Shown here: piece after piece, positions 14,037 to 60,800 of the stretch
Position numbering within the stretch: the stretch's first letter is position 1
Layout: every line of letters starts with the position of its first letter
DNA from: Mizuhopecten yessoensis
Taxonomy: Eukaryota
Reading direction: 5' to 3'
NCBI RefSeq assembly: GCF_002113885.1
Contig: NW_018405640.1
Span: 193,220 to 257,219, forward strand
DNA: 64,000 nt
Notes under the pieces: generated by a model
Told to the model about the DNA's origin: nothing
The model's database searches: none
What the model saw: only the letters and a program-made list of their open reading frames with translations
Translations under genes and position numbers: made by a program

Positions 14037-15194
14037 TACTAGCGGAAAAAAGAAATTGTGCATGCCTAAAATGTGTTATAAAAATAAATTTGTATGACGT
14101 AGAACAGCAAGGTTTTCAGGGACAATTTATTTGTTATTTATTAACAGTTGCATTCCATTTTACACGTTATGGAATCAATAAGTTCTCCTCAGGAGTGACG
14201 TAAACACAGCAGGAGTCAATACTGAGTTCACAAAGTTAATATCTCGTATGTCCACCATTTACCTGAATTCAAATTTCCGTTAACAACCATCAGAGGCGTT
14301 CTCTCGTTGGCTGTGATGCCGCCCCAAATCATAACGCTGCCTCCGCCGAAAGAACATCGTTGTACCACACACGCGTCACGGAAACGTTCTCCAACGCGAC
14401 GATACACTCTGGAACGGCCGTCACTACTATCCAGGTGGACTCGCGACTCGTCCGTAAACAAAATGCCGGCCCAATCCCGTCGAGTAAATCGCAGATGCCT
14501 TATGCACCAGTCCAGACGTGCTACACGATGACGTGGCAGAAGAACTTGGCGGATTGCAGGACGTCGCGGACGGATAGCTCGTTCACGCAATCGGTTCCGT
14601 ACAGTTCTCGGGCTTATTGGTAGCAACCCATGGATTGTCCGTGCAGTCAAACTTGCCGTTTGGAAGCGATTTCTCAAATGGACAAGCCGAATATGGTTGT
14701 CCTGCTGACGTGACGTCACACGTGGACGTCCCGCACGAGGTCGATCGCCAACGTGGCCAAACTGTTGATGTCGTCTCCACAAATCCCGGATTGTGTTTCG
14801 ATGGACATGAAAACGTGTGGAGACAACGGCTTGGCCCATACCAGCTTGAAGCATACCAATAATCCGGAGGCGGTCATTTTCATTGAGCCTCGGCATAGCA
14901 TTAATCAAAAATTAAAACGTTATAAGGCTGTTTTTACTGTTCACTGGTCTCAACAGAGTGACTCAACAGTTGACAAATAAACTTTTCTTGTCGAATTGGA
15001 TGGCTGGACGAGAAAAACGTGCAAACTGGTCAACGCCTATAGAGAGCAAGCTGCACAGGAAAAACGGTCAATGTCACACGGATAGTGTGTATGTGTCATA
15101 TTCGGTCATGTGTGTGAATTTTCATGTATATACAGTTGGTAATACATGTTCTATAACAATTTTTCGTATGCATAGTTTCTCTTTTCCGCTAGTA
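14037..15194 (-). mobile_element. Tc1/mariner DNA transposon, internally deleted (non-autonomous)
   Basis: TIRs TACTAGCGGAAAA...TTTTCCGCTAGTA with TA TSD. Contains the transposase ORF at 14228-14908. Confidence 0.93.
14228..14908 (-). pseudogene. Truncated Tc1-family transposase
   Basis: Paired-like HTH, GRPRVT AT-hook, first catalytic Asp in ILFTDES, and SVMIWGGI. After NGNLNS the sequence jumps, in another frame, to the typical C-terminus VNGGHTRY*, so the second D and the E of the DDE triad are missing. Confidence 0.9.
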
Positions 15195-18150: not shown

Positions 18151-19938
18151 TTAACTCCATAAGATTAAATGATTATATATTTTTAACATTACAGCAGTAT
18201 CAGATGAACTATATGGCAAATATATCTCTCCTAGAACAATAAGACCATTGTCACACCCAACCCACACTCTTTCCTGACTGTCAGTTGCAATGCAACGCGG
18301 CCCCATTGCACGCCTCTTCTTGTCCAATAACACCTTCGCCCTGCAGCCATCTTTTGATAGGGCATATATTTTGTTGTACGATTCATCAACTATAAGGCAA
18401 ACCTTCTTGTTTCCAATAGCTGTGATATCCAACGGATCTGTATCACCCACCCCTTCTCCTCTCCACGTGTACATATATCTGCCCCTTTTATCCACACAAA
18501 CAACGCGATGGTCATCCGGAGCTCTATCAACGACTAGAATCTCACCAGTTGAGAAGGCAGTAACCCTGTATGGGAGCTGGAACACTTCCGGGTCATGGCT
18601 ATCCAATCTTATCTCCTGTAGTATACTCCCAGCTGCAGATAGTCTCAAAACTACGTTCTTACTCTTTTCCACCAATCCAGAAGAATAAGGAGCATTTCCA
18701 CACACGATTACCTCTGCTCCCCCCTCCTGTACACATACACTTCTAGCATAATTTGGGGACAAGTCTGCAAAATTTGTCAACTTCTTACCATTACATGAAA
18801 GCTTTCGGATGCAAGTATCCATGAAACAGGTGATTAGGATTTCCTTTGATTTAAACAAAGCCATGTTGACAACTTCCCGATCAATTTGACATGATCTGGC
18901 TTTTTCGTGCAGGCTTTTGTCTATGAGAACAAGTTGTCTCCCCTTGTTTTCATGTCTGGTCCCTTCGGCGTCGTCGCCATTGCTGCTATAGGAAAGCCAT
19001 GCCGACCCGTCGTCAAGGGGGCACAGAGCAATGATCTTCTTTCGTACATTAGTCTGAAGGTGTGTCACCTTGAGGTTCAACGACAAATCGTTAAACGCAT
19101 TTATATCTTCTGGTGTTTTCAACATTCCAAACATGGCAACTAATTTTTGTTTCTGAAATGATGCCTTTTCAAATGAAGGAGGTAAAACTCTGTATTCTTC
19201 TGGTGTTTGGAAATCCGAAGATTTTGTTTTCATTTCCTTCGAAAGAACGTGAAGATGGAAAATATTGTTTAATCTTATTTCTTTTTCTATGTCATCAATC
19301 GATGTTTTAAGTTCCTGAGTTTCAGAGGAGTATTTTTTGTGTTTGGATTCATAACGTGATTTCTCCTTCGATTCTATTGAATTGATTTCATGAAGATAAT
19401 CATTCCTGAGACTCATAGTTTCCTCGCAAATCATGGTTGCCACGTCATTAATACTTTGCTTACAGTCGGCAAGCCTTTTGATGATGAATTCATGCATTGT
19501 TCTGTCCTTTTCTTCCACATCGCGATATTTTGCTAGTTTTTCATTGAAATTCTGTATCGTATCACTCAAGGCAGTTTTTAACGATTTAATGCTTCGTTCT
19601 TTGGTGTTCCACTCATGAGATCGATGGTTTTCAGATAAGCAGTCTTGACATATAGTATCATCACATGTCTCACAAAAAAAGTCGAGCTGTTTATCCCCAT
19701 GTCTGACACATGTGTTGTGGTCGTTCTGGTTTATGACCTCGACGTTTTCCCTGGCGTCTCTGATAGATACGATGTTGTCATTCTGTAACTTCTTGTTTTT
19801 AAGATGGTGTGCTCTACACTTTTCACAAAGGCGTTCCTGACAATCGATACAGTACCATTTGACCTCCTCTTCCGATTCACACATTTCACAATTTCCACTT
19901 AACATATCATTTTCGTCAACAGTGTTCTTGTCCGCCAT
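18151..19938 (-). CDS. RING-less tripartite-motif-like protein: two B-box zinc fingers, coiled coil, NHL-like beta-propeller (595 aa)
   Basis: CEMC..WYCIDCQERLCEKCRAHH (B-box 1) and CVRH..FFCETCDDTICQDCLSENHRSH (B-box 2), a heptad-rich middle, and propeller repeats ending GPRCIATDSQERVWVG. Uninterrupted ORF; probable 5'UTR acceptor TTTTACAG near 20004. Confidence 0.9.
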   Translation of the reverse strand: MADKNTVDENDMLSGNCEMCESEEEVKWYCIDCQERLCEKCRAHHLKNKKLQNDNIVSIRDARENVEVINQNDHNTCVRHGDKQLDFFCETCDDTICQDCLSENHRSHEWNTKERSIKSLKTALSDTIQNFNEKLAKYRDVEEKDRTMHEFIIKRLADCKQSINDVATMICEETMSLRNDYLHEINSIESKEKSRYESKHKKYSSETQELKTSIDDIEKEIRLNNIFHLHVLSKEMKTKSSDFQTPEEYRVLPPSFEKASFQKQKLVAMFGMLKTPEDINAFNDLSLNLKVTHLQTNVRKKIIALCPLDDGSAWLSYSSNGDDAEGTRHENKGRQLVLIDKSLHEKARSCQIDREVVNMALFKSKEILITCFMDTCIRKLSCNGKKLTNFADLSPNYARSVCVQEGGAEVIVCGNAPYSSGLVEKSKNVVLRLSAAGSILQEIRLDSHDPEVFQLPYRVTAFSTGEILVVDRAPDDHRVVCVDKRGRYMYTWRGEGVGDTDPLDITAIGNKKVCLIVDESYNKIYALSKDGCRAKVLLDKKRRAMGPRCIATDSQERVWVGCDNGLIVLGEIYLPYSSSDTAVMLKIYNHLILWS

Positions 19939-20634
19939 TTTAGTTTACAGGCGTGCTTTTACTGTCACTCCCAAACAGTAGTTCACACTAGGGAGCCGGT
20001 GCTCTGTAAAAGTAGCTAACAATAACACCGAAACATAGTATACATAACAACACTGTACATATATATGACTGGAGTAATGCTATATGTAACATCATTTGTA
20101 CATAAATGTGAAAATAAATATACATATAAGAGACCATATATAAATTTGCCTTTTAATCAGGCTGGCTATACATCATTGAAAGATGAATATTTATATGTCT
20201 TTTTAAACTGTGTCCATCTCAGATAAATCTCTTCCATATTGTGTATATAACATTAGCTTTTTTCAATAAGGTATATCATACGTTTTTGTGTACATTTTTT
20301 AAGACGTTAGATATATATTCCATTTGTTACACTATTCGCACTACGAAATACAAGTACTGTATACTTAGCAGTGAATGTAATTTCCACACGGCTAAAAATA
20401 GATATTTAAAATTCGGTCATCCACCGTCAATTTAGCTTGAGACTTGCACAAGTTAATTTCCGAGACACCTTTAACACATGTAGTAATATCCTTCCACTAC
20501 TCTTGACACCACCAGATAAGTCGATCCAGACGATGATTTATACAATCTACACCAATATTAATACAGATTTATATACAAAATATATATAAGTATTTAGGCA
20601 GTATTATACAGTTTATATACATAATATTCATCCA

Positions 20635-26642: not shown

Positions 26643-28295
26643 ATGGCGTCCGAGGACGTGTGTGATGGGGACACTACTTTGTCTCTGCTGTTGTGCAGCG
26701 ACTGTGAAACTGAGGAACATGTTAACTGGTTCTGTCAGGAATGTCAACACAACTTTTGTGATAAGTGTAAAGATCATCATTTAAGAAGAAAGAAATCGAG
26801 AACGCATTCAATTGTTCCGTTTCGAGAAGCCAAATACAGACCGGTATACATTAACAAGGCCTTGTGTGGCGTGCATCCGGGTGAATCCCTTGACTACTGG
26901 TGTGAGGACTGTGATGTTACAATTTGTGTGAAATGTATACCTGATCGACACAAGAAGCATAGCTGGTGCACTGTGGACGATTTCAGGTGCCGTGTCCAGG
27001 TAAATATCCATAGTAAAATAGACGAGTTCAGAGAAACATTGCTGAAATACAGAGGTGTGATGAACGATGATTCAAAATTCTCAGAATACATGAACTGTTG
27101 TATAGATCATCTCAAGGAAGATGTGAACAACCAAGCAAGCACCTTATGTCTAGAGGTAAACAAAAAGAGAGACGAAGTTTTGAACGAAGTCACCATTTTC
27201 GAGAATAAAGCAAAGATACAACAAAATCAAAGTAAGCTCAAGATGACTGAAGATATGGCAGCTTTAAATGAATTAATCACAAACACAGAACAATCCCTAA
27301 AAGGTTGTGAATCTTCGTCGTCTCTGTCTGTTTTATTGAAAACTATTGAAGATACTTCTGGGTGTTTCCAAAGTCCTGAAAGCGTTCGACGCCAACCGCC
27401 AACTTTAAGTAAACCAGAATATGTTGACCAATCAAAGTTGGTGTCACTGTTTGGTCAGCTGGAATATCCATCCTCCCAAAAACTAGAAGAGAGAGTGAAA
27501 TACGAGGTGAAAACAAAATACTTAAAAACAAAAACAATAAGGAAGATCCTGGCCCTCTGTGTTCTAGACAATGGTAACATCTGGGTTTCATTTGACGGGA
27601 ATCGGTTTTTAATGTTAATAGACGGATACTTGAATGCGATAAAGAAATCCTGTGACACAGAGAAAGGAGTGGTCAGTATGGCTCTTTATAAAAACACAGA
27701 CTTAGTGTTCACGCGATTCATGGACACTAGCGTGCAGCGAATCGGTTGCCATGGCGACAAAATGGTAACTATTGCTGATCTCGATCCTTACTACACAAAG
27801 GGCATAAGCGTAAACAATGAAAACAGACTTTTAGTCTGTGCTGTAACTACGACATGTAGCAAAATTGTGAAAATGACAGGGAGGGGTCAAATTCTCTTAG
27901 AAATACCAATCGACCGGAACGACATTGAAACACTTACTCGACCATATAGAATTACCAGTTTTGATACCGGTGAGATGTTTGTAGTTGACACAGCAAAAGA
28001 CGACCACCGTGTAACGTGTTTAGCTAAGCAAGGGGAACGTTTGTTTTCGTGGTCTTGGCGAGGTGAAGGAGTCGGTACAGTGGAACCGTTGGGGATAACC
28101 AATGACAAAACGGCGTGTTATATTACAGATGAAAAAAATAATAGGATTTACGTGTTACCAAAGAACGGAAATACAGCAGCCGTGTTGCTGGACGAGAGTA
28201 GCCGACAGACAGGACCAAGATGCATAACTATTGACCGGAAGGGATGTTTGTGGGTAGGGTGCAATAACGGTGTCATTCTAAAGATTGAGAGATAA
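26643..28295 (+). CDS. RING-less tripartite-motif-like protein, paralog of 18151-19938 (550 aa)
   Basis: CSDC..WFCQECQHNFCDKCKDHH and CGVH..YWCEDCDVTICVKCIPDRHKKH B-boxes. Shares DDHRVxC, WRGEGVG, GPRCI and WVGCxNG with the first copy. Probable 5'UTR acceptor TTTTCAG ending at 26523. Confidence 0.9.
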   Translation: MASEDVCDGDTTLSLLLCSDCETEEHVNWFCQECQHNFCDKCKDHHLRRKKSRTHSIVPFREAKYRPVYINKALCGVHPGESLDYWCEDCDVTICVKCIPDRHKKHSWCTVDDFRCRVQVNIHSKIDEFRETLLKYRGVMNDDSKFSEYMNCCIDHLKEDVNNQASTLCLEVNKKRDEVLNEVTIFENKAKIQQNQSKLKMTEDMAALNELITNTEQSLKGCESSSSLSVLLKTIEDTSGCFQSPESVRRQPPTLSKPEYVDQSKLVSLFGQLEYPSSQKLEERVKYEVKTKYLKTKTIRKILALCVLDNGNIWVSFDGNRFLMLIDGYLNAIKKSCDTEKGVVSMALYKNTDLVFTRFMDTSVQRIGCHGDKMVTIADLDPYYTKGISVNNENRLLVCAVTTTCSKIVKMTGRGQILLEIPIDRNDIETLTRPYRITSFDTGEMFVVDTAKDDHRVTCLAKQGERLFSWSWRGEGVGTVEPLGITNDKTACYITDEKNNRIYVLPKNGNTAAVLLDESSRQTGPRCITIDRKGCLWVGCNNGVILKIER

Positions 28296-29529: not shown

Positions 29530-30130
29530 TTGACAGTACCCCCAAGATCGCCAAGTGAAATCGAGTGAGAGGTAGACCAACTAACGGACGACGAGTGTGC
29601 AGACCAACCTCGCGCAATCGGTTCCTTGCAGATTGCATACCGTATTAATAGCGGTTTCAATGACATCAACGTGGCGATTACGCAGATGGGCAAGACGAAT
29701 AGCCCTGTCCTGACGTCGCGTCGTTACGCGCGGACGTCCCGATCGCGGTCGGTCGGCAACCCTTCCGGTATCTCTCGGACGACGGTCAAGACGTTCTATG
29801 GAAACATTCACACCGAACTGCATAGCAACATGTTGTTGCATTTGACCTTGCATTAGCAGTGCAATAGCCTGGCCCCTCTGAACTTACGTCAGCCGTACCA
29901 CGATTGCAAGAGATTCAAATTGACTTTAAATAGCGGAAAGCGGTGTATATACATCAATAGTATCAAGTGGTAAGACAGGATGTGTTGACGAATTTGTCAT
30001 CACTATTCTGCACGTGTTTTTTTTTTTTTTTTTGCATTTTACCATTTTCACTATTTGGCACACACAATTGAGTAACTTTAGACAACGGTTTGAGTGCACA
30101 GTGACCAAGAAACTCGTCTGACTGGTTTTC
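29530..30130 (-). mobile_element. Degraded Tc1-family transposon remnant
   Basis: Translation ..QGQMQQHVAMQFGVNVS..TGRVADRPRSGRPRVTTRRQDRAIRLAHLRNR.. is homologous to the N-terminus of the 14228-14908 transposase. Contains a stop and frameshifts; the ends are uncertain. Confidence 0.8.
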
Positions 30131-32133: not shown

Positions 32134-35100
32134 TTACCCAATGGTCCCCTGGCTGTAGTCGTTTCTGAAACATAAAGATATTAATGTTACTCTAGAAGGA
32201 TAAAACAGTGTTTATATTACTAAATTTTAAAGGTGAAGTCACTTGTGCGTGTGTCTTTCTTCTTTCCATATACAAGGTGCTAAATTCGGCTGGTGAATTT
32301 GTTAGTCCCCGAAGTTTGCCGTAACCTTGATGGACACCATTATCTCTTTTGAGTAGTGTCACGCTTCATAATATAACACTTTTCTCATTATCAATATGAC
32401 ACTGAACTTTCTCCTCTTATTTTTGAAACTTATATGATTAAGAGGATTGTGTATCTCCCCTCTCTGGTTCAACAGTAGTTAAGACCAATTTGGATTTCCA
32501 CTCTGTTGGCCCTGCCGCCACCGATGATTCATAGAAAGAAGACACAGATGCATGGAGCCCCGTACTTCATTTTGGCATACTGTATCAATTACCAAATTGT
32601 ATGGAAGCAATCACAAACATAATTCTGAAATACTTTTAGTTTTGCGTTAAAGTAATAAACAGTCTGTGAACACCATACCATCGTACGAAGCCGCATGGCA
32701 GCAAGTCCACGGTAGGTGTACAAACAGAGACAATGTGGTAAAGATATTCAATAAATATCAACAGATCGTCTACACAGTTCACCAATGTCAATTAACCACC
32801 TTCATTTTCACGAATATTAGTAGATCACCTACACATTTTCACGAATATTTGTAGATCACCTACACATTTAACAAATATCAATTGACCACCTACATTTTCA
32901 TGAATATTAGTAGATCACTTACACATTTAACAAATATCAATTGTCCACCTACATTTTCACAGATATTAGTAGATCACCTAAACATTTAACAAATATCAAT
33001 TGACCACCTACATATTTCATCAATATTAATAGTTCACCTACAAATTCAGGAGTAGCAGTAGATCATTCACAAATCATCTAACGATGGCTCTAAACGTTCT
33101 TAACATTTCTATGTCTAGAACAGAATGTACCCTGTCACTTTCATCACAAAGTTATTTTTAGATGAAGGTGACAGTGCATATCGAACTAGTCCTCGAAACG
33201 CTTCATTGGTTGTGCTAAAAGAAACTGTATGCAATATATCTAACGATGCTTGATAAATTGCTAAATGTGTAGATAATCTGTTACAAGTATATGTCAAGTT
33301 TATATGAAACTGTAAAAAGTCTTACTCAATTTCACAGACAAACGGAAGTGACGTATTGCATGGAACATCGTTCCAAAAACCTGACAGTGTTAAGGCCAAG
33401 CAATCCTCCCTCCCGTAATGGTCGTTTGGTTCCCCGGGACCCCAGTGCGAGTTGGTGATTGAATCAAATGAACTGGCCCACTCCCATTCTCCTTCAACAA
33501 AGAAGTCGGCCCCTCCTAAATAGTATTCACCTTGGGTTACTGAAATGACAGGAACAAAGCTATGACAGAAATGTGGAAAGATAGCAAAACCATATTTGTG
33601 TCTTTACGAGTGAAAGCACGTGACGTGTTTTGTGATCTGTTGTGACCTGTTGTGCTTTCAGCTAAATGTTCCAATAGACAATTGATGAACACATAACAAT
33701 AAAAATGTGTTTGCCAGAAGCGATGTCTAAATAATTTCGAAAATACAATTGTTGAAATACGGAAAAATGCCTTATAAACACTTTACGGCATTACAAGTTT
33801 ACAACATTTTGCGACTAGAGATAATATATTCTCAGACTAACATTTCATGTTAGCTGGGCTGTGTCAGAATAAATTCAAGCCACAAGCATGGAATATGTTT
33901 GTTAAAATTTAAATTTTGTTATTATAATTATGGTTTGCTAATAAGAAATTTTGGAAAATCAGGCCTTTTTCTGACACTTGTTTACTTACCATGTTTATCT
34001 CTAACCTCTCCGTCTAGGAAAACTACATCTATTGAATCTCTCGGTTCTGCAAGTTTTCCGCGGAAATTTCGACAGTAACTCTGTAAAAATGATAAATTAA
34101 AGCATATGAATTTGGAGAAACAAAACGTGCACGTGTCTATCAATATTTCTATCGAATTATGCTGATTTTTTAAGTTGCAATAGTTTTCAGAAATATCTTA
34201 CCTTATTAAATATTACTTATACATGAATAACGTATATCCTTTAAATCATACAGATACTTAAAGGACAAATTTATGATGAAACTTTAATAAAGGGCACATT
34301 TGTCTTGGCTTATTTAGCTTGAGGGTTCCTATAATCCAGATAGCCATGTTCGAAAAGCAATACAGTAAGCCATGTGTTTTATTACCAGTTTGTTGCTTTT
34401 TGCTCAGTGGACATAGTTTAAATGGTTTAAAGAATACAAATGAATGTTTCACACAAAATCATTGAGGCAGGGCCTGCTGGAAAATTATTTCGCTACGATA
34501 TCTGGACTCTTAAGATATTCAGTTCTCATTATTATATAGAAAAATCCTCCAAGCGCACGATTCTTGCAAGATTCTTGTTAACATCAGTATTACTCCCTGC
34601 ATAGCAAAGTACTGTTTTAGACAAACATTCGTGAAAATGGAATGCAATGGCCAACAAGAGAAGGACGCAAACATATATTTACATATATTCATGGATCACG
34701 TCTCAAAATTTTATATGTAAAGATGTGGAGAAAACTAAATCCTTGTATATCATGGTATATTTTCATATGGTGCAAAATGATCAAAATTTCCATCACTTTG
34801 TACCAAGGCACACCAGGATATAAAATAGTATCTTCCTGTCCGGTCGCTGTCGGTCATTGTAATGAAATGATATAAAGAGTTAACTCACACCAGCGTCGGC
34901 CCAAGATCCTACCACCACGCTGAAGAAGTAGCAACGTTCTCCGTGTGCAGTCCAACCTGACGGACACGCTACAACATACATAACCATATTATTCGGCAAA
35001 TGAACTAGTGGAAACATTCAGTTTGAACATGAGAGAAAAAAAAGAAAAACAACAACAAGTACAGATGTGTAAACAACCCTAAACAAGCTCAAAATCGATA

Positions 35101-38209: not shown

Positions 38210-41200
38210 CTATCCGATTGTTTCCTGGCCGAAGTCATTTCTGAAATAAACACAGACTTGCAATCAGTGCTCTATTATATACAAGAACGTGTTAGTACAT
38301 CATTAATGGCTGTCTAGCAAGATACGTGTACTAGAACGTTTCTACATAAAAGGAAATGGTCAATGGTCAATCTGGCAAAACTCGCTCAATTGGTAACGGG
38401 ACACTTGCATACTTTGTCAAAACTGACTCAGTCTTCATGAACATTGGGGAAAATCGTATTTGAATAAAATCGAGGCAGATTCATTTAATGTAATCTAATA
38501 ACGGTTGAAATATTTTGCTTCAATTTCCGAGCGACAATAAGTTTCAATTGTTATTTTGAACATTTATAACGAAGGTCAACCAATTTGGTGGTGAAAGAAG
38601 GGAATTTACACAAAATTGTTTGGAGCATTTCGTTTAGGAATCATGTTAATGCAATGATAATAATAAAATTACAGTAATGAAAACTATTTCGGCTTTTTGC
38701 ATAATACCATATCTTCAGGTGTGACATTGAATAATATTTTCAAGGCAAAATAAGTGTTGTATCCATGTGACTCATGACTCATTTAAACAGCAAATATAAA
38801 TCAAGTGTGATCTTATTATACTACAAATGACAGTTCGACTGAGCACCGTAAGTACTTACTCAAGTTCGCACACAAACGGAAGTGATATATTACAGGGAAC
38901 GTCATTCCATAAACCACTTAATACCACACCCAAACAATCCTCTCTCCCGGCTAAGTCATTTGGTTCCCCTGGTGACCAGTTGGCATTAGTGATTGGCGAC
39001 AAAGTGCTAGCCCAAATCCATTCTCCTTCAATGAAGAAGTCACCTCCTCCTAAATAGTATTCACCAATCCTTGCTGGTTTGGCAACACAAGAAGAAAAAT
39101 ATACCACAATGTATACAACACCTTAATTCAAAATCAAAATCGACGAAACTAGAGTTAATTAAGAGTACATGAATACTTACACAGAGATAATAAATAACAC
39201 CAATAAGACCACATGTTCCTAAAGGGTAAGCGTCCTTTGATGAAGTAGGTCAAAATATAATACCATTTAGCCGGGTTTTTTGCTGGATTTGTATATTTTT
39301 TTTATTTCGCTGTGAATACATTTATTCGCGAAAACAGAATTCTTGTAATAATATGGCACGAGTAATTATAATCCACGTTATAAAATACAATGCAGTCTAG
39401 TATTGCAACTGGATCAGGATCGTCCTTATCAAGCATGTATGTAAGTTCTCAAGCGATCCAGGAATATCATTCGCTAAGCGTTATTATTTAAAACAGTATA
39501 GTAAACATTTGGATAAGTTTATGTTTATGTACAGATGATACATTGATATTTGTTTAAAAATAAAACCAAGAGAATTTCAGAAGTGTACCGGAATATATGT
39601 TAAAAAGTTGACATCGGGACAATATTTATACTAAAACACTCCATATCTGCAAATCACTAAATTTGAAAGCGTGTGAATTAAATTTTCGTGTTGGAGTAAA
39701 AAATTAGAATATTTAAAGCCGGGAGAAAAGCGACCTATATAGTAATGTCACGCTCTCAAAGAGGGAGATTGGGCAGTGACAACGGAATAACAAGGCACAC
39801 AAGGAAATAGAATGAGAACATAATGGCAAATTTATCTCATATCGGAGATCAAATTTCAATTTTGATTAATGAGTTAATTGAAAAATAGTTTATATTGACA
39901 TATCAACTTACGATGTGTGCTTTTTACCGCTGTGTCAATGAAAACAACGTCAGCGGCTTCCATAGGTTCTGCAAGTTTTGCGTTGAAATTCCGGCAATAA
40001 CTCTACAAAATTGAAAACAAATAAATATTTAACTTAAATGAGGAATTATCAACTTTAATACAATGGCACTGGTATCAGATACGATAAAAAATATGTGTCG
40101 AACATAAAATGAGGTTCCTGTACAAAGATGGGCGAAACGGTGAGAACATGTAGTGCAGAAAAAAAGGGTTTACTTTGTTTGCCTTTCGGCATCGGTTTAC
40201 TTATTATAAGATATGTTTCCTTACTCCGTGTTTCTGTTGATTGCCAACCAGGGTAAGATACTAACTATTAAATATGTTTCCTACTCAGTGTTTCTATTGA
40301 TTACCAACCAGGGTAAGATACTTACTATTAAATATGTTTCCTACTCAGTGTTTCTATTGATTACCAACCAGGGTAAGATACTAATAATCGAATATGTTTC
40401 CTTAATCCAGGTTTAGATTGATTACCAACCAGGATAAGATACTTATTATTAAATATGTTTCCTTACTCCGTGTTTCTGTTGATTACCAACCAAGGTAGGA
40501 TACTAATTATCAAATATGTTTCCTTACTCCGTGTTTATATTGATTACCAACCAAGGTAAGATATAAATTATTAAATGTGTTTCCTTACTCCGTGTTTATA
40601 TTGATTACCAACCAAGGTAAGATATTAATTATTAAATATGTTTCCTTACTCAGTGTTTCTATTGATTACCAACCAGGGTAAGATACTAACTATTAAATGT
40701 GTTTCCTTACTCCGTTTTTATATTGATTGCCAACCAGGATTAGGTACTTATTATAAAATATGTTTCCTTACTCCGTGTTCATATTGATTACCAACCAGGA
40801 TAAAATACTAATTATTGAATATTTTTCCTCACTCCGTGTTTATATTGATTTCCAACCAAAGTAAAATACTAATTATTAAATATGTTTCTTTATTCCGTGA
40901 TTATATTGATTGCCAACCAGGATAAGATACTAATTATCTAATATGTTTCCTTACTCCGTGTTTATATTGATTACCAACCAGGATAAAATACTAATTATTG
41001 AATATGTTTCCTTACTCCGTGTTTATATTGATTACTAACCAGGATAAAATACTAATTATTGAAAATGTTTCCTTACTCCGTATTCTATGGATTACCAACA
41101 AGGATAAGATACTAAGCGATAAATTTGCACGAATTCATTCGAGAAAAATGTCGACAAAATATTATTTCTGGAGACTCTAGCTTAAAGGTATATGCTTTTT

Positions 41201-47439: not shown

Positions 47440-49905
47440 TTTTCATTTCAGAATATTTTATTGTACTGATCTTATGTACAAAAGGAATTGGGCAACAGGC
47501 ATAGCCTATATAAGCCCTCTCCTTACAAAACATAACAGTATATACATATCATATAAATGTTACTTTTACAGATGTTTCTTTAAGTATTAAAATAAGAGAT
47601 TATTTGTACTTTGAATTTGATTTGACAATACATATTTCAAATATCACAATTGTTATAAAAGAGATTATTTTACAAAGTTATTTGAGAATCTAATAAAAAC
47701 GTCTAGTGTCTCTAATGTAATTCTGAACCGTCTCCACAATATTTATATTCATATTTACGTCTCGTGATTGGAAACCATAAATAAAAGTTTGGGTATTGAG
47801 TGGAATAGCATCACTCATCGCTGACAGAGAGTTAAGTAATATTAGTCGTTGGTTAGTATAAAAAGGACAGTGCAGGAAAAAATGATCACGATCTTCGAAG
47901 GGGGAGCCACATATACAAGCAGGGCTATCATTTAGATGTGCATTAAATAAATCTGAATTTAAATTACTTGCAGAATTTCTTAACTGACATAATGTTATGT
48001 TAATTTTTCTATCACCGTGATATTTACAAATGTTACTACATATTGGGTGAACATCATCCATATGGGATGAACGTAAACATTCCTTTTTCAGAGCTCCAAG
48101 AGATGTCATAGTGGGAAACAGACAGGCTGGATTGTTCCATTCTGACATCAGTTTTGGAAAATAACTAGAGTTATATAAATGCGTTCTTGGTACTGGAATG
48201 TCAAATAACCTATTGTGTCGAAAGTTGTAATGTTCAAAGTTATTAAGAAAGGGCAGTATCAAGTCTGAGACATGAGATGGACAATTGTTATTAAAGAATT
48301 TAAAAAATGCAATATTTTAATGTAAATGTCTTCTTTTACTAAGTTTAACAAAGCCAGTCTCTCTATATAAAATGTTATGGCTCGTTCCTCGTCTTAAACC
48401 AGAAATAATGCGTGCTGCTTCAAGTTGGATTGACTCTAAGACGTTGCACTCTCTCTGGGAACAGTTAGCCCATACAATATCAGCATATTCGAGGATTGGA
48501 CGAACATATGATATATATATTGTTTCAAGGGATTTTCTATCAATCTTAAATTTTAACATTCTAAGTATATTCAGTCTTTTATATGCTTTTTCATAAATAT
48601 AATTTATATGAGTTGACCAGTTGGCTTTGCCATTGAAAATAAGACCAAGGTGTTTATGATCAATAACGTTACAGTATTAATAACTGCATTATTAAAAAAT
48701 AGATTAGGATGCAACGTCTCAGAGTCGACCCGCCTTGAGAAAAGTAGAGCCTCCGTTTTATCCGGATTGAAGATGATACCCCATTTATCAGCCCAGATAG
48801 AGATTTTACGTAAGTCTTCATTTAGTATGTCAGCAGCTTCCTGTCTGTTTCCCTCTATCAATGCATATAACGATGTGTCGTCAGCGAAAAGCTTGACATT
48901 AGAGATTAAAATTTCTCCGATATCATTTATGTACAGTAAAAATAAAAATGGCCCTAAAACTGACCCCTGTGGTACCCCCGCCTTTAACGTTTTCCAGTTA
49001 GATTTAAATCCATCAAAGACCACACTCCGTCTCCTATCAATTAAATACGAAGAAAACCATTTCAAAATATTACCACAAAACCCATATTTTTTAATTTGAA
49101 AATTAAACCATCATGCCAGACCCTGTCGAAAGCTTTGCTGATGTCACAAAATATCATTCTAGCCTCTTTACCTTTATCCAAGTGCTTTACAATTGCATCA
49201 TATATAACTAATAATTTATAGACAATTGAATCTTTAGGTAGAAACCCTGATTGATTCTTAGAATCAATATTATATCTTGAGAGATAATTAAACATATATT
49301 TAAAAACATTTTTTTCAAGAATTTTACTAAAAATAGGAGTAACAGAGATTGGTCTATAATTAGATGGGTTACTTCTTGCACCCTTGTACGTGTACACGGG
49401 TGTAACATGAGCATTGTTCCATGCAGAAGGGAGAATACCGGAGGAAATAGATTTATTGAAGATAAGTAAGAGAGGTCTTAATATAGATTGAGATACCCCT
49501 TTAATAAATTTTGGAGGGATGGAATCAGGGCCTTGGAGTTTATTAGTATTGAGTAGGTGAAACTGGTCAATGATGTCCTGTTCTGTAATGTCAAATGTCG
49601 AGAAGCTGTGCTCTGGCCGGTTACAGTCGGTTGGCAAATCATCAGCATTCTTTCCGGTCTCAGATATTGATGAAAAATAATCGTTAAAAGATTCAGCTTT
49701 GTCGACGGGATGTATTTTGAGTATGCCATTAATAACCAAAGGAGAGTCAATTTCACATTTATTTTTAAGATTCATAACAGATTTTGCAACACGCCACCAT
49801 TTCCTCGGGGGTATGGATTTGTCTATTAGAGAAGATTGTAATTTTGAAAGATATTTTTCTTTGGCCTCACGTATTGATAAAATTACTTCATTCCGAATAG
49901 TTCTG
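47440..49905 (-). mobile_element. 5'-truncated CR1-like LINE with frameshifted reverse transcriptase; 9-bp TSD ATGAATATC
   Basis: ORF pieces contain NYRPIS, DISKAFDRVWH, GVPQGSVLGPFLFLLYIND, LFADD and a C-terminal CxC..H..C motif. AATAAA plus (TGAAA)n tail. ATGAATATC at 47431-47439 and 49906-49914. Confidence 0.93.
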
Positions 49906-50549
49906 ATGAATATCAGCTGTTTCAATTTTTCCACAATGAAGAACGAAACTGATAAAGTTGGTTTGAAATAGTACATATATACAATTGTACGTCTCCGGTA
50001 GAATGTAACTAGGCAGAACACGATTGTTTTGTTTTTTTATAGTTTTGTTTTTAATTTGTTAATGAAAAATGAAAATATTACTTATACAAATATAAGTACA
50101 CACTCTCTTTTGCAACACACATATAGCACAATGGATCTTGTTGGATGTTTTGTTCAATCTACTGCACGCGTGTATAATTATAACCTAATTATCTTATACA
50201 CTTATACATATTATCTAAAATATACAAATACATGCCTTCAATACATACTATAGATATGGTAAGTTATCGATCTACGGCACAAGAATTATGTCCCAAACTT
50301 CAAGCGAATTGCAACAGATCTTATTTTTTTCATTTCTATCTTTACGAATATTACATAAAAAGTAGATATTTTACTTTAAAATTTGTCAAATAAGTGACTT
50401 TCGTGAAAGAAATTTGGGGGGGGATGTTTTTTGGGGCGAAATATTTGGGGCGTAATAGATGTTTGGAGCGAATTGGTTTGGGCGATATGAATCAGCTTGG
50501 GGCGTTTCGGTTTTGGGGCGAATCGTCAGATGTTTCGGCCCCAAAAACG

Positions 50550-51870: not shown

Positions 51871-54800
51871 ATGGAGGCTGTGCCTCGGATGCCGATGTTA
51901 TCGTTTGAGTTGAAACAAAGTCCAGAATATGTCGATTTCGGTCCGGTTTTAAAACAGGTGAGAAACTTAAGAGTTAACTCTCGAGTTTGATGTCAAAGGT
52001 GACACGTTTTTCTTGCTCGATATCTTCCTCTCACTTAAAACAACATCGATGTTTTGAGGTTGTTGACATCCCAATATTTTGACGTAAAACGCTAATGTGT
52101 CATTTTTGGGTGTTTGTATCACGAACGCCTTCTTAAGAAGTCTTTAAACGTAAATTCGCACTTAGATCACTATTATATAATTATGAACTTAGATTAGAGC
52201 GTTATTGGATCATTGCATGCAATTTTGCCGACGAATATGACTCATTATCATGCCGGTTGAATTACGTGAATTACACCTAATACTATTCCAGTCATATCCT
52301 AATAGTCATGAGACTAGTGTTGCCTCGGGCTCAGGAAGTTAACATTTGAACTCTTTTCATTTAGAATAAGATGATTATTTCAATTGTGTTATGACGTTTT
52401 TTTCTGTTAGAATGACGAGATTCTCCATTTGGTTCACTAACAAATATTCATTCTATATATTTATATAAAATGTTACAATTTTTTACAGACCATAACAGAT
52501 GACACAAAAATAAGTAAAACCAGTGTCAACTGACCCCTGTTTAATCCGGATGCATGTCTATTCCGGCTTTGATATCTGGTCCCATTATTTCCTTTCTTAG
52601 AAATAACACTCTTGAAATCAAACAAAACTATTTATCAATTTGCAGCGTGGCACCATGCTCCTAGAATTTCTTGCCATGCTGCTATCCTAGATCTTCTCTA
52701 CTATATATTCATAGTAAATCTCAAGTAACCAAGCTGCTTTAATTAAACACATAGAGTGCTGCTTTAACAGAAATATTGAAACACCATGCTTCTAGCTTTC
52801 AAATCATTCTGGGGAGAACACTGATCTTGTTGTATATATAATGTTATATAAATAATGATTAATATGCCCTACATTTATTCTGGCCTTTCTATTTTCCTCA
52901 CTCTTCTAGATCTGTCCCTGTAAAAGTCTTTCCCAGATGTAAAATATACAATATGTTGACTTTTGTTTTAACATATTGCAAATAATTAAACATTACTATG
53001 AAATATCTTCTTTATTTTCTGTTCTCACATCAGTGCTATATTTATTTCAAATATTTTAACTTACATAGTTAACAGGCGAGAGAGTAGTGTGCTTCCACCG
53101 GCGATTGAACCCGCAATCCCAGACTTAATAATCGGACGCTCTACCACTGAGCTAATTAAGGGAAACTCCCTGTAGTGCAAAGCTAGAAGGTGACCGTTAT
53201 CATATGTACAATAAGAATCTGTGACACTATATATAGATTCCCCCTTTTTTAAATGTGTTCATCCTCAAACACCACAACAACCCAGGTTCTAACTCCCTGT
53301 CTGACACCACAGGGAGGGCCACGGACCCCATTTGTAACAGGAAATAGAGTTGTGTGCTAGCTTCCTCCAGGGATTGAACCTGCAATCCCAGACTTTCTAG
53401 TCGGATTCTACCACGAACTAAGGGAAATTCTCTCAAGTGCAAAGCTAAAAGGCCACCGTAATCATATGTACAATAAAAATCCGCCACACATATAATGTTT
53501 AAAATGTTGATACCCAACTATAGCAGTGTGGTGAACCAGATTAATAAGGTGGCAGATGAAGAAGTTCATTCAGAAAATTTCTGTCGAAAACAATTTCAGT
53601 ATAACAGTCAATGACATGCTAGATTTTTGAACACTAAAAATATATATGCAAGACCACACACTTGTGTTTTTCTAACGAATCAGAAAGCACGAGTTTACTG
53701 CGCGGATGTATATATTCGTCCGCGCAATAAGTGAGTGCTTTCTGATTCGTTAGAAAAACACAAGTGTGTGGTCTTGCTTTTATCACATACCTTCCGTATT
53801 TTGTAGAGATCGATACAAAGATTTAATAAACTTTGTTGATATTTTTTGCAAATACCGGGAACTTTTCAGTTCTCCATGACAAGGGGATTCCCATAAAAAG
53901 TAGTTCAAGCTAGTAGGTAAATACAACATTCGGTATTGCACGTGTGTAATACAGAACGTTGTATTTCATGGCCTGAAAATTGGTTGTATTACTATAACAA
54001 GATTCAACAGGTATGTGATAAAATGTAATATTATATTATTCGGGCAAATTCTTTTTTTGGACATGTGAATCAATGCAGGGGTGTACAATATCATATTTAG
54101 AATAATAGCCCTCGGGTTGATTTTAAAAAGTTACACAAAGTCAAACTATATTTTAACTGTAAATTTTGAACATTTCCCCTAGCCACAATGTAAAACCTAC
54201 CAGCCATGGGTGTCAGCTGGCTATTGGTGGAAATGTACGTGGAAATGTACACCCCTGAAATGTTTAAACAATTTTCCAAGGCACTGATAAAACCACGTTT
54301 GGAATATATGCAACAAAGTGTTTTGAATAAGATTCATACAAGTTAAAAGACATCCAAATGGTAGAATATATATGTACAATGATGAGGATACCTGGATTCA
54401 AAGAACTTTTGTATGGAGAACACCTAGAAATGATGCAGTTCCCAACAACGAAGTGCAACCGGACAGGGTTAGACACTCAATATACATATAAGTCACAAAA
54501 ACGATCTTTTTCTCACGTTTCTTTTTTTTTTAGTACATTCGTGATAACTATGGAGAAGACCCAGCCCAGTACAACAAGGCGTGTAACGACTTGGAACAAC
54601 TCAGACAGGTAAGATATAGCATATACCTGTGACATCATACGTAACTGATCTAAGACACATATATGATAATATGAGATTGTGATATCAAAGATAATGCTAA
54701 TAACTCCTGTTTTTGGTTGCAGTAATAATTCATCATTTGGGGTAGTTTCAGTATGTAATAATCAAGGAATAAAGGAATCTCAACCCCACAAGGACGTTTC

Positions 54801-57800
54801 GTGTTATGTACGGTCTACATGTTTCGGCCTGCTATACGTATACGGCCATCATCGGGACCCTGTGATGTAATGAATAGAAGATTTAGTGTTTTTTTCTCGG
54901 CGATTATACATGGTACATTTCACTAATGTAGAATATATGTAGAATAATTTTCATTTGTGCTTTGTAACTGTGAAAAATTTCTGTATTCTACCGCATCTTA
55001 CGTACTCATGAAATTAATATGGTATTCAATGATCAGAAATCATTGAATATTGTTTTTATATCAACTCCATGGTGACTGTTCTACCTTCATTCCATAGCTT
55101 GTGCTATTTTGATGAGGAAAATATTTCACATTTTTACAACAATGGAAAAATATGTATTTCCTCACAACAAAACATAACTATCAGACCTTTTGTCAAAGTG
55201 TTTAATATACATGTATAGCTAGAAAATGGTTTGTATGTGGTGAAATAAATGCATTTTTGATTTGTAACATTTTTTTTTTTATTTTTTTATCTTATTACAG
55301 GAAAATATAGCTGAAAATTATTGAGAAGAAAAGACCAAAATTTGCCCAGAAATATACACATGTACAAAAATAAATAATAACAATTTTGTATTATGTAAAA
55401 TTACAGAGTGCTGTCCATGTTTCGCATGACTTCATGGGATGTAGTACTCTAAAGAAATACTATGCACAGCTACAGTTCCTACAGGGGCGGTTCCCTATGG
55501 GGGAGGGAGGAGAAGCAGCGATACCATTCACCTGGTAAGTACAGTACATTAATGGGGGAGGGAGGAGAAGCAGCGCTACCATTCACCTGGTAAGTACAGT
55601 ACATTAATGTGGGAGGGAGGAGAAGCAGCGATACCATTCACCTGGTAAGTACAGTACATTAATGTGGGAGGGAGGAGAAGCAGCGATACCATTCACCTGG
55701 TAAGTACAGTACATTAATGTGGGAGGGAGGAGAAGCAGCGATACCATTCACCTGGCAAGTACAGTACATTAATGGGGGAGGGAGGAGAAGCAGCGCTACC
55801 ATTCACCTGGTAAGTACAGTACATTAATGTGGGAGGGAGGAGAAGCAGCGATACCATTCACCTGGTAAGTACAGTCCATTAATGGGGGAGGGAGGAGAAG
55901 CAGCGATACCATTCACCTGGCAAGTACAGTACATTAATGGGGGAGGGAGGAGAAGCAGCGATACCATTCGCCTGGTAAGTGCAGTACATTAATGGGGGAG
56001 GGAGGAGAAGCAGCGATACCATTCACCCGGTAAGTACAGTACATTATCTTCTCCCCTACATTAAGGATCATAAAAAAGTATGGCACCTAATCAAAATGAT
56101 CCATTAGATTCTTAACCAATGCCATGAATGTTCAGATTGACACTTTGTGAACAATTAGACTGGAAAGGATTTATAAAGCTGAATGGAAACATTTTAGAAG
56201 TAGGAAGTTTTTATCAGAATCCAATAACTGGTGCATTACAGAAAACATCTATTCTCTAAAGGTTTGGTAGTACACATATTATGGTCAACAATTTCTCTAT
56301 GTATGTAAGATACCCTTTTTCTCTTACCCTGGACAGGTGTATCCACACTTTTACAGGTGTGAGATATCCTTGCCTTTCCCTAGGATTGAAACAGGGGATT
56401 CCCCAATTCATAACAATTGTATGACTGACGTCACGTCAACAATGCATCAACGTCATGTCAACAATGCTTTGAGTCTGTAATGTTAACATTCATTACGTAT
56501 ATGATAGGGTCCAAAGGGTAAAAGAAAAAGACCTATTCTCCCCCTTGAGGTGAGATTAGGAATCTTGACCCTCAACACCCTTAAAGTTTGTGTTTGGAAA
56601 CTGAAGATTCCCCTATCTCACCCACAAGGGGGCCAAAGATTCTGTTAAAGAACAGTCATATGAGTTACATATAACTTTGTCTATACTGCATGGTTGCACT
56701 CAATGGCCTTTATTATTCCCTCGTAACGAAAGTTCCAGGGGATATAGGATTCAGCCTGTATGTACGTATGTACATATGTCACTTCATGTTTCAGGTTACT
56801 GTGTTAAAGGTCAAGGTCAATTTTACTATTTTTATAAAAACTTTGTTATTGCTCTATCAACTTCATTCCTGGTTACTGTGTTAAAGGTCAAGGTCACTTT
56901 TACTATTTTTAGAAAAAATCTATTATCCATCAGAGAATGCAGTCACTAGAACAGATTCTGATACATCATTGAATTTTTATTCATTTCTTCATACGTATGT
57001 TGCACAATCACTTATGATGCCTTGCAATTGTCATACCATGACATCACAATCAGATGAAACCATCTTAAGTATATGAACATCAGTATTATGGCACCAGCTT
57101 GCACTGAAGGTCTTTCACAGATCTCTAACATTGAGTATTATACCTTTGGCTGCTCTTTCCAAAAATAGTCATAGTTTGTGTATACAGTAGGCTTTGCTGA
57201 GTGCTTATCTTCAAAAATCTTATCCCAAGGTCAATATTTCTCTGTCTACATCACACAGGAATGATTGATTATTTTTCTCCCACACTTTTCTACAGTAATA
57301 ATTACAATATAAACCAACATCACTGTGAGCCTTACTTAGCCGGTGTAATGAGTCGGGAGTTCTATTTTCAGGGAGGACATCCACCTCGGCAGAGAGATCA
57401 CGATCGGTGATGTCAAGTTTGAGCAGGCGTGCATCTTGTACAACATCGGAGCTCTCCACGCTATCCTGGGAACCATGGAAACCAGACAGAGTGCTGATGT
57501 AGGTATTGGGATGAGGGATGGTGTGATAGAGCAATTAACCCTAGTATTTTATGCATTGTTTTACTTGGTGACACTTTAATCGACTTCAATTCAACTCACT
57601 CACCCCTGAAATTTCATAATCAACTATTCCAACCTTTGAACTGGAAGAGTTCACATGTGTCTCCAGGGGTGAATGAGTTAAACAAGTTATCAAAAAGTTC
57701 TTTGCAGTATATAGGTTAAAACTGAAAAGCAGTTGTCTATGTTAGAATATTTAATAAGCATTCAAATTTGTATGGGAGAGAGACTGGAAAATATAGAAAA

Positions 57801-60800
57801 TGTACTTCATTGACTCCTTTTGGACAAAATAACTTCATCAAATGTCATAGTTTTAGATTTTCAGTGCAATGACAAAATTCAAGAAAAATGCAAAATGCAG
57901 GAAATTCTACTACTTTCCAAAGTCCAAGATGAAGGTGAAGATACCCTTAAAATCTTGACTGCAAATTTGAAAAATTGATTTATTAGGTAACCAATATAAT
58001 TAAAGGGAGTTAACTCTGCCACAAATTATAGATAATGTTTAAGGTAACATATCACCTTAACTATGACTCCTTCTAACACTGTTTTTCAACTGAAATTTGT
58101 AAACAGCATTGATTGATATTCCCTAAAATAATTTCTGTTTTTAGGGTATGAAAGTATCGTGTACTCACTTTCAGTGTAAAATGATTTCTATTTTTAGGGT
58201 ATGAAGGTATTGTGTACTCACTTTCAGTGTAAAATGATTTCTATTTTCAGGGTATGAAATTATTGTGTACTCACTTTCAGTGTAAAATGATTTCTATTTT
58301 TAGAGTATGAAGGTATTGTGTACTCACTTTCAGTGTAAAATGATTTCTATTTTNNNNNNNNNNNNNNNNNNNNNNNNNNNNNNNNNNNNNNNNNNNNNNN
58401 NNNNNNNNNNNNNNNNNNNNNNNNNNNNNNNNNNNNNNNNNNNNNNNNNNNNNNNNNNNNNNNNNNNNNNNNNNNNNNNNNNNNNNNNNNNNNNNNNNNN
58501 NNNNNNNNNNNNNNNNNNNGTATGAAGGTATTGTGTACTCACTTTCAGTGTAAAATGATTTCTATTTTTAGGGTATGAAGGTATTGTGTACTCACTTTCA
58601 GTGTAAAATGATTTCTATTTTCAGGGTATGAAATTATTGTGTACTCACTTTCAGTGTAAAATGATTTCTAATTTTAGAGTATGAAGGTATTGTGTACTCG
58701 TTTTCAGTGTAAAATAATTTCTATTTTCAGGGTATGAAGGTATCGTGTACAATCTACCAGTGTAAAATAATTTCTATTTTTAGGGTATGAAGGTATCGTG
58801 TACAAACTACCAGTGTAAAATAATTTCTATTTTTAGGGTATGAAGGTATCGTGCACACACTTCCAGTGTGCCTCGTGGGCATTTGAGTACCTACGAGACC
58901 ACTTTGGCTGCTCCCTGATGAGTGCAGATATGTCACACGACCTCTTGACCTTTCAAATGAACCTAATGTTGGTATGTTGGCAAAGTGAATTTATTATAAA
59001 TTAACAGTTATAAGATTTATTTTAGATTGAAAGTCTGTTACTTCAAGGTGACACAGTAAAACTTATAGAATCGTTTTATCAGGATCAGAATTAAAAAATA
59101 ATATATGTAAAAATATAATTCAATAGGTGTAAGTTTCTGCTATAAACTTAATTCAATTTGTTTTAGATAATAACTGGTAGCAAGACCTCATTGAACATGA
59201 TTTTATTTTTTATTAAAAAAAAAAAAAAAAGGAAAAAAAGAGTTTGTGCCTAACTCTCCTTATTCAGATGTTTTAGACTAGTTTATATACAGACAGTTGT
59301 CTGGTCCAGGAGAAATATATCTTTTTATTGAAGGTTTTTTATAAAGTTATAATGATATAAATATAGATAAGGTTTGGGAACAAATTATTTCTGCAAATAA
59401 AGATTTATTACAGAATCAATCGGAAGTTTTTACTTGTTGAACAGTAATATAAATGTTATATTTGAAGGCACAAGCCCAGGAGTGTATTCTGGAGAAGTCG
59501 ATGATTGACAGTAGGAAATGTTCCATCACCGCAAAGGTAGCTGCCCAAATTGTAGAATTCTACCGAATAGCACTGCGTAACCTGGAGACCTGCTATAGTG
59601 ACGGACTCATCAGCTCCAGAAGAAATAAGGTACTGTAGGTTATAAAGCCTTGCTGTTGAGAATATCATTTGGTCATCTATTTCATATATTTGGCATGGAG
59701 CATCCCTTGGCGAAGGAACTTAAAATCTGTTATATAGAAGATTGATATTTTTTTATAAATTTATTTTATAAAATCCCTGTGTTGTCTTTCAAATAGTTAA
59801 AAGAATTATTTTTTTCTATAATAAACAAAGAGTGTGCTTGCTATCATCTTGTCCCTTTCAAAACATTGTAACACAATAGAATGAATATGATTTAACGCTT
59901 GTTTGTAGCAGTGGAAGAAGTTCAATTTTGGACCATATGGGACCTGAAAAGCTGATAAGCTGGTCTTATTCTTTTGATTGTTACATACATCCTTTAAAAG
60001 TGCCCCTTTTCTTTTTTTCCTGTCCGAGAGTGCTATCACTTAATTCATAGTTTGTATCAACTTGCATGTAAAAGGTGCCAAATATAGCATTTTAATAGGA
60101 ATATTGGAAGGTTTGTGTGCTTCTTCTAATTTTCCCGAATTGCTGAGAGCCCCAGGCACTTTTAGATCAGATATGGTAAGAGACCTCCTTGCAGGCAGAG
60201 GGGGGTGCACAGGGACAAGAGGAGTAAAATGCAAAAATTCTGCTCTTTACAGATAAATAGTCAAGCATCCCTTGGCCTAAAAGATTGATTTTCCTCTTTT
60301 AGGAGAAAGTGATTATATCGGCTTTGTTTGTTGTCTCTCCGTTTGATTATTATATAGATAACAAGATTTGTTGATTTTTTTTTATAATAAACAAAGAGTG
60401 TGCTTGTTATCATCTTGTCCCTTTCAAAATATTGTAACACAATAGAATGAATATGAGTTAACACTTGTTTGTAGGAGTGGAAGAAGCGGATGGACATCAA
60501 GATCATGTTTTATCAGTGCATAACCCACTACTACATGGGACGCCAGGCCGAGGAACAGCAGAAGGCCGGGGAAAACCTCGCCTACTACACTGCCTCACGT
60601 GAAAAACTCAACGAGTGTATCAAACTGGCAAAGGTATAAATAGAGCTGAGAAAGTTGTATTAATTCCTTTGTGCATCTTCTTCTTAGGTCACCTGAGCTT
60701 TGCTCAAGTGACCTATTCTTGTCGCTTTCCGTCCGTCCTCGTCCGTCGTGCGTAAACTTTTTACATTTTCAACTTCTTCTCAAGAACCAGTGGATGGATT

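What the first reader, a model, noticed from the sequence alone, without database searches (positions are those of the whole stretch)
58126..58869. Mirror case: eleven or more tandem 3' splice sites ahead of PTPN23 exon 5
Seen: 20 nt of intron end plus 33 nt of exon start (GMKVxCTHFQC) are repeated with period 53. Every visible copy keeps a pyrimidine tract and TAG/CAG, and only the last runs into the exon. Using an upstream acceptor shifts frame into GTA TGA. The first and last copies keep the Ser codon TCG while the middle ones have TTG, an edge effect. Known: acceptor choice usually favours the first AG after the branch point, so exon definition from the downstream donor must override the decoys. 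The N gap hides the true copy number.
Basis: partly seen in the sequence, partly recalled or inferred. Interest (0 to 1): 0.7.

Follow-up and report, generated by a model that had tools for sequence, protein, structure and literature searches.

The report
Splice-acceptor "mirage" repeat in PTPN23
A 53-base piece spanning the end of intron 4 and the start of exon 5 of PTPN23 in an animal that is likely a scallop is repeated at least 11 times, yet the assembled RNA joins only to the last copy; it is likely a tolerated example of the "mirage" repeats known from lancelets, in the acceptor-side form that was far rarer than the donor-side form in a sample of this genome.

Summary
The array is real. 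It has 10 visible intact acceptors, 11 visible exon-start copies and about 14 units if the gap size is right. It also appears in two other studies' contigs. In 4 of 4 RNA contig sets (2 studies; 2 only guessed to be RNA) exon 4 joins the last copy. All 8 readable decoys stop at codon 20, so errors would be hidden by decay. This is a "mirage" minisatellite as described in amphioxus, including an acceptor-type example (BflGb6). The scan has found such arrays before on other DNA (60 notes, at least 17 genomes; two donor-type in this genome). New here: around 412 exon intervals of this genome, 24 of 170 arrays cross a donor and none clearly crosses an acceptor, against 4 to 8 expected per side. 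So this array is the rare form. The same gene also has a 10-copy donor array and a skipped 113-nt copy of the exon 7 acceptor. Likely mechanism: local duplication, repeat turnover, then choice by exon definition. New member of a known kind; interest 0.3.

The parts
58124..58869 (+). 53-bp acceptor mirage array (20 nt intron 4 end + 33 nt exon 5 start); at least 11 units, about 14 by register
58124..58177 (+). First (5' edge) unit; the only one preceded by ancestral intron sequence, with branch-point-like TTGAT at -33/-29
   Evidence: branch-point reading is a recalled consensus, untested
58178..58710 (+). Internal TTG-type units, including a 3-unit higher-order repeat (units at 58198 and 58572 identical; 58251 and 58625 identical)
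   Evidence: pairwise differences
58354..58519 (.). Assembly gap, 166 N
58711..58816 (+). Two exon-proximal decoy units of a second type (TCG kept, CTCAC motif absent; 2 differences between them)
58817..58836 (+). Authentic 3' splice site of intron 4 (TAG at 58834-58836)
   Evidence: RNA contigs join exon 4 to 58837 in 4 of 4 runs
58837..58971 (+). PTPN23 exon 5, 135 nt, Bro1 domain
57372..57498 (+). Exon 4, 127 nt; donor after 57498
55496..56046 (+). Companion donor mirage: 55 bp x 10 (39 nt exon 3 end + 16 nt intron 3); 8 of 10 GT, 2 of 10 GC
55407..55534 (+). Exon 3, 128 nt
59468..59629 (+). Exon 6, 162 nt
   Evidence: joint in 4 of 4 runs
59808..59920 (+). Single 113-nt, 95% copy of the intron 6 end plus 12 nt of exon 7 (60374-60486), 566 nt upstream of it; skipped in RNA contigs
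   Evidence: loose ends match the real exon 7 in 4 of 4 runs
51871..51957 (+). Coding exon 1
54534..54608 (+). Exon 2, 75 nt

Best explanation
The array is a "mirage" minisatellite: a 53-base piece across the intron 4/exon 5 boundary of PTPN23 is repeated head to tail, assembled RNA uses only the last acceptor, and the extra copies are likely tolerated by-products that likely lose out because only the last one is followed by a whole exon and a nearby donor. Steps. (1) Inferred: one local duplication with a 1-nt overlap founded it. (2) The pattern is shown and the process inferred: unequal exchange or slippage expanded and homogenised the middle, giving identical internal units and a 3-unit higher-order repeat, while the edges stayed distinct. 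(3) Shown for the main transcript: exon 4 joins 58837. (4) Inferred: the choice is by exon definition. Both flanking introns exceed 250 nt even with the array collapsed (646 and 496 nt), and the last acceptor gives the shortest exon (135 nt against 188-827). (5) Shown in sequence, effect inferred: any decoy use gives a stop at codon 20, so nonsense-mediated decay would remove the errors.
For: Array anatomy. Present in contigs of two studies other than the possible source: X5 runs 57630-58176 and then goes back 53; X9 runs 57629-58197. Exon 4 end directly before 58837 in 4 of 4 RNA contig sets, with no loose end at 58784; the X15 and X16 contigs (3363 and 3426 nt) pass the junction unbroken. 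A second decoy with 101 nt of intron end before exon 7 is also skipped in 4 of 4, so having the intron signals is not enough. The same anatomy and normal splicing are reported for amphioxus BflGb6 and Adh3 (PMC3087553, section 16). Exon-centric proximity rule in human data (PMC9225289).
Against: Contigs drop rare forms and every readable decoy product carries an early stop, so the error rate is not measured. Only 2 of 10 acceptors were in the stretch and 2 in that. Array-derived contigs occur in 3 of 4 RNA sets. In X12 an unspliced contig across the real acceptor has depth 14.1, against 32.5 for the exon and 3.7-6.7 for other intron pieces (X12 is only guessed to be RNA). In PMC9225289 exon definition reduces, but is not said to reverse, the preference for the upstream 3' site. 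6 decoys have a branch-point-like CTCAC at -31 while the real acceptor has no yTnAy match in -45..-15. Acceptor-crossing arrays are depleted in this genome, which suggests they are often not harmless.
Confidence: 0.78

Rival explanations
1. Leaky decoys: upstream acceptors are used at a sizeable rate and the products are destroyed, so array length lowers or tunes PTPN23 dose.
For: The decoys have equal tracts and 6 have a better branch-point match. 8 of 8 readable decoys give a stop at codon 20. Array pieces appear in 3 of 4 RNA sets and the unspliced path in X12 is raised. Acceptor-crossing arrays are scarce in the sample.
Against: No contig joins exon 4 to the penultimate acceptor. X16 has no array piece and X15's are at depth 2-6.4 against 64.9, which background times copy number can explain. 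About 4 raw reads end at the exon 4 donor and none lies on copy 1 (below the tool's listing threshold).
Confidence: 0.12
2. Nascent intron gain: a 9-nt piece of a decoy (acceptor to the internal AAG/GT) is spliced as a micro-exon to the AAG inside the real exon, giving the same mRNA by a two-step route.
For: 8 of 10 listed units carry AAG/GTAT 9 nt after the acceptor. A related model is drawn in PMC3087553 Fig. 7. Junction sequences cannot tell the two routes apart.
Against: It needs an AAG acceptor 9 nt behind a strong TAG, and a weak donor. No contig with a doubled 9-mer was seen.
Confidence: 0.03
3. Assembly artefact: the copy number is inflated by the same units being placed on both sides of the gap.
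For: Units 58198 and 58572 are identical, as are 58251 and 58625.
Against: The third pair differs at 3 of 53 positions and the first pair also differs. At least 7 distinct units lie right of the gap. Variant units and go-back-53 joints appear in two other studies. At most the count is affected, not the existence.
Confidence: 0.05

Closest known systems
Amphioxus 'mirage' minisatellites: globin BflGb6 (acceptor type) and BflGb9 (PMC3087553; abstract, passages and section 16 read); PGBD5 and troponin C (PMC3902484, one passage read); Adh3 (Canestro et al. 2002, not held, known only through these citing papers)
   Same: Tandem unit spans an exon-intron boundary, splice signals are copied, the middle is homogenised and the edges excluded, and normal splicing is reported. 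BflGb6 has the same intron-end plus exon-start polarity.
   Different: Mollusc-type host (species from earlier notes, untested here). Unit 53 nt against 150-160 nt in BflGb6, at least 11 units against 3-6, and all visible AGs intact. In this genome the acceptor form is far rarer than the donor form.
Human F7 intron 7 37-bp VNTR (PMC1557585; abstract and outline read)
   Same: Minisatellite across a splice site with silent but functional pseudo-sites; the exon-proximal site wins. It matches the exon 3 donor array at 55496-56046.
   Different: F7 is donor-side, where the true site is transcribed first and 5'-to-3' scanning explains the choice. Here the true acceptor is transcribed last, so that rule cannot explain it.
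Exon-centric proximity rule (PMC9225289; abstract, section 9 and part 1 of 2 of the discussion read)
   Same: With long flanking introns, sites closest across the exon are favoured.
   Different: Human alternative events between two sites; for 3' sites the upstream preference is only reduced. Here about 10 near-identical upstream rivals lose.

Membership tests
Mirage minisatellite | Tandem repeat whose unit spans an exon-intron boundary | tested here: met
   20 nt intron + 33 nt exon, period 53; boundary fixed by RNA contigs
Mirage minisatellite | Copies duplicate the splice signal | tested here: met
   10 of 10 visible units keep YAG and the tract
Mirage minisatellite | Regular splicing of the main mRNA is kept | tested here: met
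   4 of 4 RNA contig sets join exon 4 to the last copy
Mirage minisatellite | No aberrant transcripts | tested here: inconclusive
   Contigs drop rare forms; raw runs gave about 2 reads each; array pieces in 3 of 4 RNA sets
Mirage minisatellite | Concerted evolution inside, edges excluded | tested here: met
   Two pairs of identical internal units; first and last three units distinct
Mirage minisatellite | Length differs between alleles or cells | not testable with these tools
   Short-read contigs break in the array; no long reads were listed
F7-type donor VNTR | Unit carries the exon end and the 5' splice site | tested here: not met
   This array is acceptor-side; the feature is met by the neighbouring array 55496-56046
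Regulated alternative 3' splice sites | More than one acceptor used in mature RNA | tested here: not met
   One junction in 4 of 4 sets, for the 2 acceptors in the stretch; minor use not excluded
Recursive splice sites (definition recalled) | Acceptor AG directly followed by GT | tested here: not met
   AG is followed by GG (8 of 10) or AG (2 of 10)
Intron gain by tandem duplication | A donor in one copy pairs with an acceptor in another | tested here: inconclusive
   Internal AAG/GT in 8 of 10 units; the product would be identical to the normal mRNA

The most novel reading that the evidence does not exclude
In this genome splice donors are hot spots for minisatellites (about 5-6% of sampled donors sit in one), while arrays crossing an acceptor are removed by selection because their decoys are transcribed before the true site. 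The PTPN23 exon 5 array is then a rare survivor, a natural ladder of ten intact rival acceptors on which the rule for 3' splice-site choice in an invertebrate can be read directly.
Probability: 0.4. Interest if true: 0.55.

Novelty: new member of a known kind. Interest (0 to 1): 0.3.

Why it matters
The array itself is an ordinary member of a described class. Its value is as a test case. The true acceptor is the last of ten equal ones, so first-come scanning cannot explain the choice. The genome sample shows a strong donor-over-acceptor bias (24 to 0 clear cases) that 8 literature searches did not turn up. If the bias holds genome-wide, thousands of scallop donors sit in such arrays, and acceptor-crossing duplications are under measurable selection. 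That bears on intron-gain models and on annotation errors.

Tried and rejected
Raw RNA runs X19 and X20 (about 19% of each read) gave only about 2 reads each over exon 4 and were swamped by a dispersed repeat at 57590-57685. Their zero depth on copy 1 is too thin to count. Summed contig depth over copy 1 (X5 about 103 against 8-10 beside it) is not a copy number by the tool's own note and is not used. Whether an array-free allele exists could not be read, because 467 loose ends were not shown. The myosin sample alone (4 of 53 arrays at donors) showed no enrichment; it appeared only after adding three families. A hidden-gap bias was rejected: N runs lie beside 0 of 405 acceptor ends and 1 of 405 donor ends. 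GC bias explains part of the donor excess (expected rises to 8.4) but not all. Six other tandem arrays in the window showed no exon overlap on inspection (not tested against proteins). The rest of the gene lies beyond the contig end. 190 kb upstream on the same contig was fetched and not analysed. The original mirage paper is not held. Supplements were not read; Additional file 4 of PMC3087553 holds the BflGb6 alignment and may bear on how many of its AGs are intact.

Full report
Observation. Tandem Repeats Finder reports period 53 at 58124-58353 and 58520-58869, on either side of 166 N. The unit is the last 20 nt of an intron plus the first 33 nt of the next exon. Ten acceptors are visible, all with AG (7 TAG, 3 CAG) and 10-11 pyrimidines in -20..-3. 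Eleven exon-start copies are visible, and only the one at 58837 continues into the exon. Units differ from the authentic one at 3-9 of 53 positions. The register across the gap is 5 periods plus 3 nt, so about 14 acceptors if the gap size is right. TCG is kept in the first and the last three copies (4 of 11), not only first and last. Two internal pairs are identical, forming a 3-unit higher-order repeat.

Gene. Four of four exon peptides tested hit Pfam BRO1 in profile order (three are below the whole-protein cut-off, as expected for single exons). Exon 5 matches human PTPN23 (3 of 3 PDB hits, E 5.5e-13). Coding exons 1-6 have GT/AG ends and give 238 codons with no stop, so 'exon 5' is right for coding exons. 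The host is an animal genome of 988 Mb. Earlier scan notes call it a scallop; I did not test that.

Is it real? Contigs of two studies other than the possible source run from unique intron into the array. X5 covers 57630-58176 and then goes back 53; X9 covers 57629-58197. Both hold variant units (X9 is guessed DNA and X5's kind is not recorded). Existence is secure; the copy number is not.

Which acceptor is used? On 58760-59660, which holds the last 2 of 10 acceptors, 4 of 4 RNA contig sets (2 studies; X15 and X16 on record as RNA, X12 and X14 guessed) show the exon 4 end directly before 58837 and the exon 5-6 joint. No loose end is listed at 58784. Against a clean picture, array-derived pieces occur in 3 of 4 sets. 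In X15 they have depth 2-6.4 against 64.9. In X12 an unspliced piece across the real acceptor has depth 14.1, against 32.5 for the exon and 3.7-6.7 for other intron pieces. Four pieces were not shown. Background DNA or pre-mRNA times copy number can explain most of this, but decoy use is not excluded. Eight of nine decoys give GTA TGA at codon 20 and the ninth runs into the gap, so mis-spliced RNA would be a decay target (established knowledge). Raw reads were too few.

Two more boundary copies in the same gene. A 55-bp x 10 array copies the exon 3 end and donor (55496-56046). The X15 and X16 contigs carry 285 and 360 nt before exon 5, equal to 127+128+30 and 127+128+75+30, so the first donor is used. 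This is an inference from lengths. A single 113-nt, 95% copy of the exon 7 acceptor, with 101 nt of intron, lies 566 nt upstream of it. All 4 RNA sets continue into the real exon 7. A decoy with the full intron end but only 12 nt of exon therefore also loses, which points to downstream exon context.

Mechanism. Birth by one local duplication and growth by repeat turnover are inferred from the pattern. For choice, the decoys are not weaker in tract or AG. Six even have a branch-point-like CTCAC at -31, while the authentic site has no yTnAy match in -45..-15 (consensus recalled). Flanking introns are 646 nt (array collapsed) and 496 nt, above the 200-250 nt switch to exon definition cited in PMC9225289. 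The last acceptor gives the shortest exon. That paper reports that exon definition favours sites closest across the exon, but for 3' sites it only reduces an upstream preference. So exon definition, plus exon sequence missing from the 33-nt decoys, is the likeliest cause and is not shown.

How common? I sampled 670,264 bases in 164 segments around 412 exon intervals found from four Pfam searches (myosin, P450, kinesin, kinase). I left out 30 kinase and 3 P450 loci with large exons of unknown ends (used as seeds only) and the rows I did not fetch. TRF gave 170 arrays (period 15-250, at least 2.8 copies). By eye, 24 cross a donor (22 clear, 2 diverged) and 0 clearly cross an acceptor (1 borderline); several others stop within about 40 nt before an AG. 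A uniform null expects 3.9-5.7 per side. A GC-weighted null expects 8.4 donors and 6.8 acceptors: P(22 or more) 7e-5, P(0) 0.001, P(1 or fewer) 0.009. A TRF-independent test gave 20 of 387 donor ends and 4 of 383 acceptor ends. After inspection I dropped 2 donor hits as ambiguous and 3 acceptor hits as purely intronic, leaving 18 and 1 (Fisher p 6e-5). Limits: four families, approximate exon ends, unblinded sorting, some paralogues. The sample cannot tell biased birth from selection. An unchecked scan note reports equal donor and acceptor counts in another genome (e1-7908560), so the bias may be lineage-specific.

Comparison. [quoted passage not shown] They include BflGb6 with the 3' end of an intron plus the 5' part of exon 2, show concerted evolution with edges excluded, and do not disturb splicing. 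PMC3902484 repeats this for PGBD5, Adh and troponin C. Human F7 is the donor-side case. The defining features that could be tested are met; absence of aberrant transcripts is inconclusive and length instability could not be tested. The scan holds 60 notes with these words in at least 17 genomes and two donor-type notes in this genome. Eight searches found no paper on mirages in bivalves or on a donor/acceptor bias; the library lacks most subscription journals.

Verdict. Observation confirmed, interpretation partly supported, new member of a known kind. Interest 0.3: the class is known, but this is the rare form in its genome and the bias is testable.

Noticed in passing
window 55496-56046: 55-bp x 10 donor mirage at the exon 3 end; 2 of 10 copies have GC instead of GT; first donor used by contig-length arithmetic.
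   Followed up: yes
window 59808-59920 and 60374-60486: Single 113-nt, 95% copy of the exon 7 acceptor plus 12 exon bases, 566 nt upstream; skipped in 4 of 4 RNA contig sets.
   Followed up: yes
G000 myosin, kinesin, kinase and P450 loci (e.g. C2573:369173+1582-3123, 70 bp x 22; C2573:391300+1875-4894, 42 bp x 75; C76639:153000+2105-3934, 55 bp x 33): 24 donor-crossing arrays against 0 clear acceptor-crossing ones among 170 arrays; 14 of the 24 are in kinesin genes.
   Followed up: partly
G000:C5589:2658900+1180-1270: Two-copy, diverged duplication of a kinase exon acceptor; the only genuine acceptor-side case in the second test.
   Followed up: partly
G000:C4496:194500+3-2267 and C5545:539000+7524-8962: Long arrays (38 bp x 60; 53 bp x 27) that end at or a few bases before an acceptor AG and carry AG-containing units; the first may be a diverged acceptor mirage.
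   Followed up: partly
window 57590-57685: About 95-nt dispersed repeat in intron 4 with thousands of matching reads and contigs, some joints on opposite strands; MITE- or SINE-like, unclassified.
   Followed up: no
window 18151-19944 (-) and 26643-28295 (+): Two divergently oriented long single-ORF genes; the second hits B-box and weak NHL-like families, the first looks similar by eye.
   Followed up: partly
window 33322-33603 and 38856-39122 (-): Two similar C-type lectin exons (Lectin_C hit for the second), with 59-61 bp intronic minisatellites nearby that do not appear to cross exon ends.
   Followed up: partly
window 14228-14911 (-), 29581-29883 (-), 47690-50036 (-): Tc1-like transposase fragments and a broken LINE-like reverse transcriptase, judged by eye.
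   Followed up: no
window 3938-4357 (-): Ig-domain-like exon; a kinase-domain match lies upstream on the same contig and strand (C2313:32422-32886); relation not examined.
   Followed up: no
window 57372-57498: Exon 4 (127 nt) seems to equal two human PTPN23 exons, by recalled human exon sizes; not checked.
   Followed up: no
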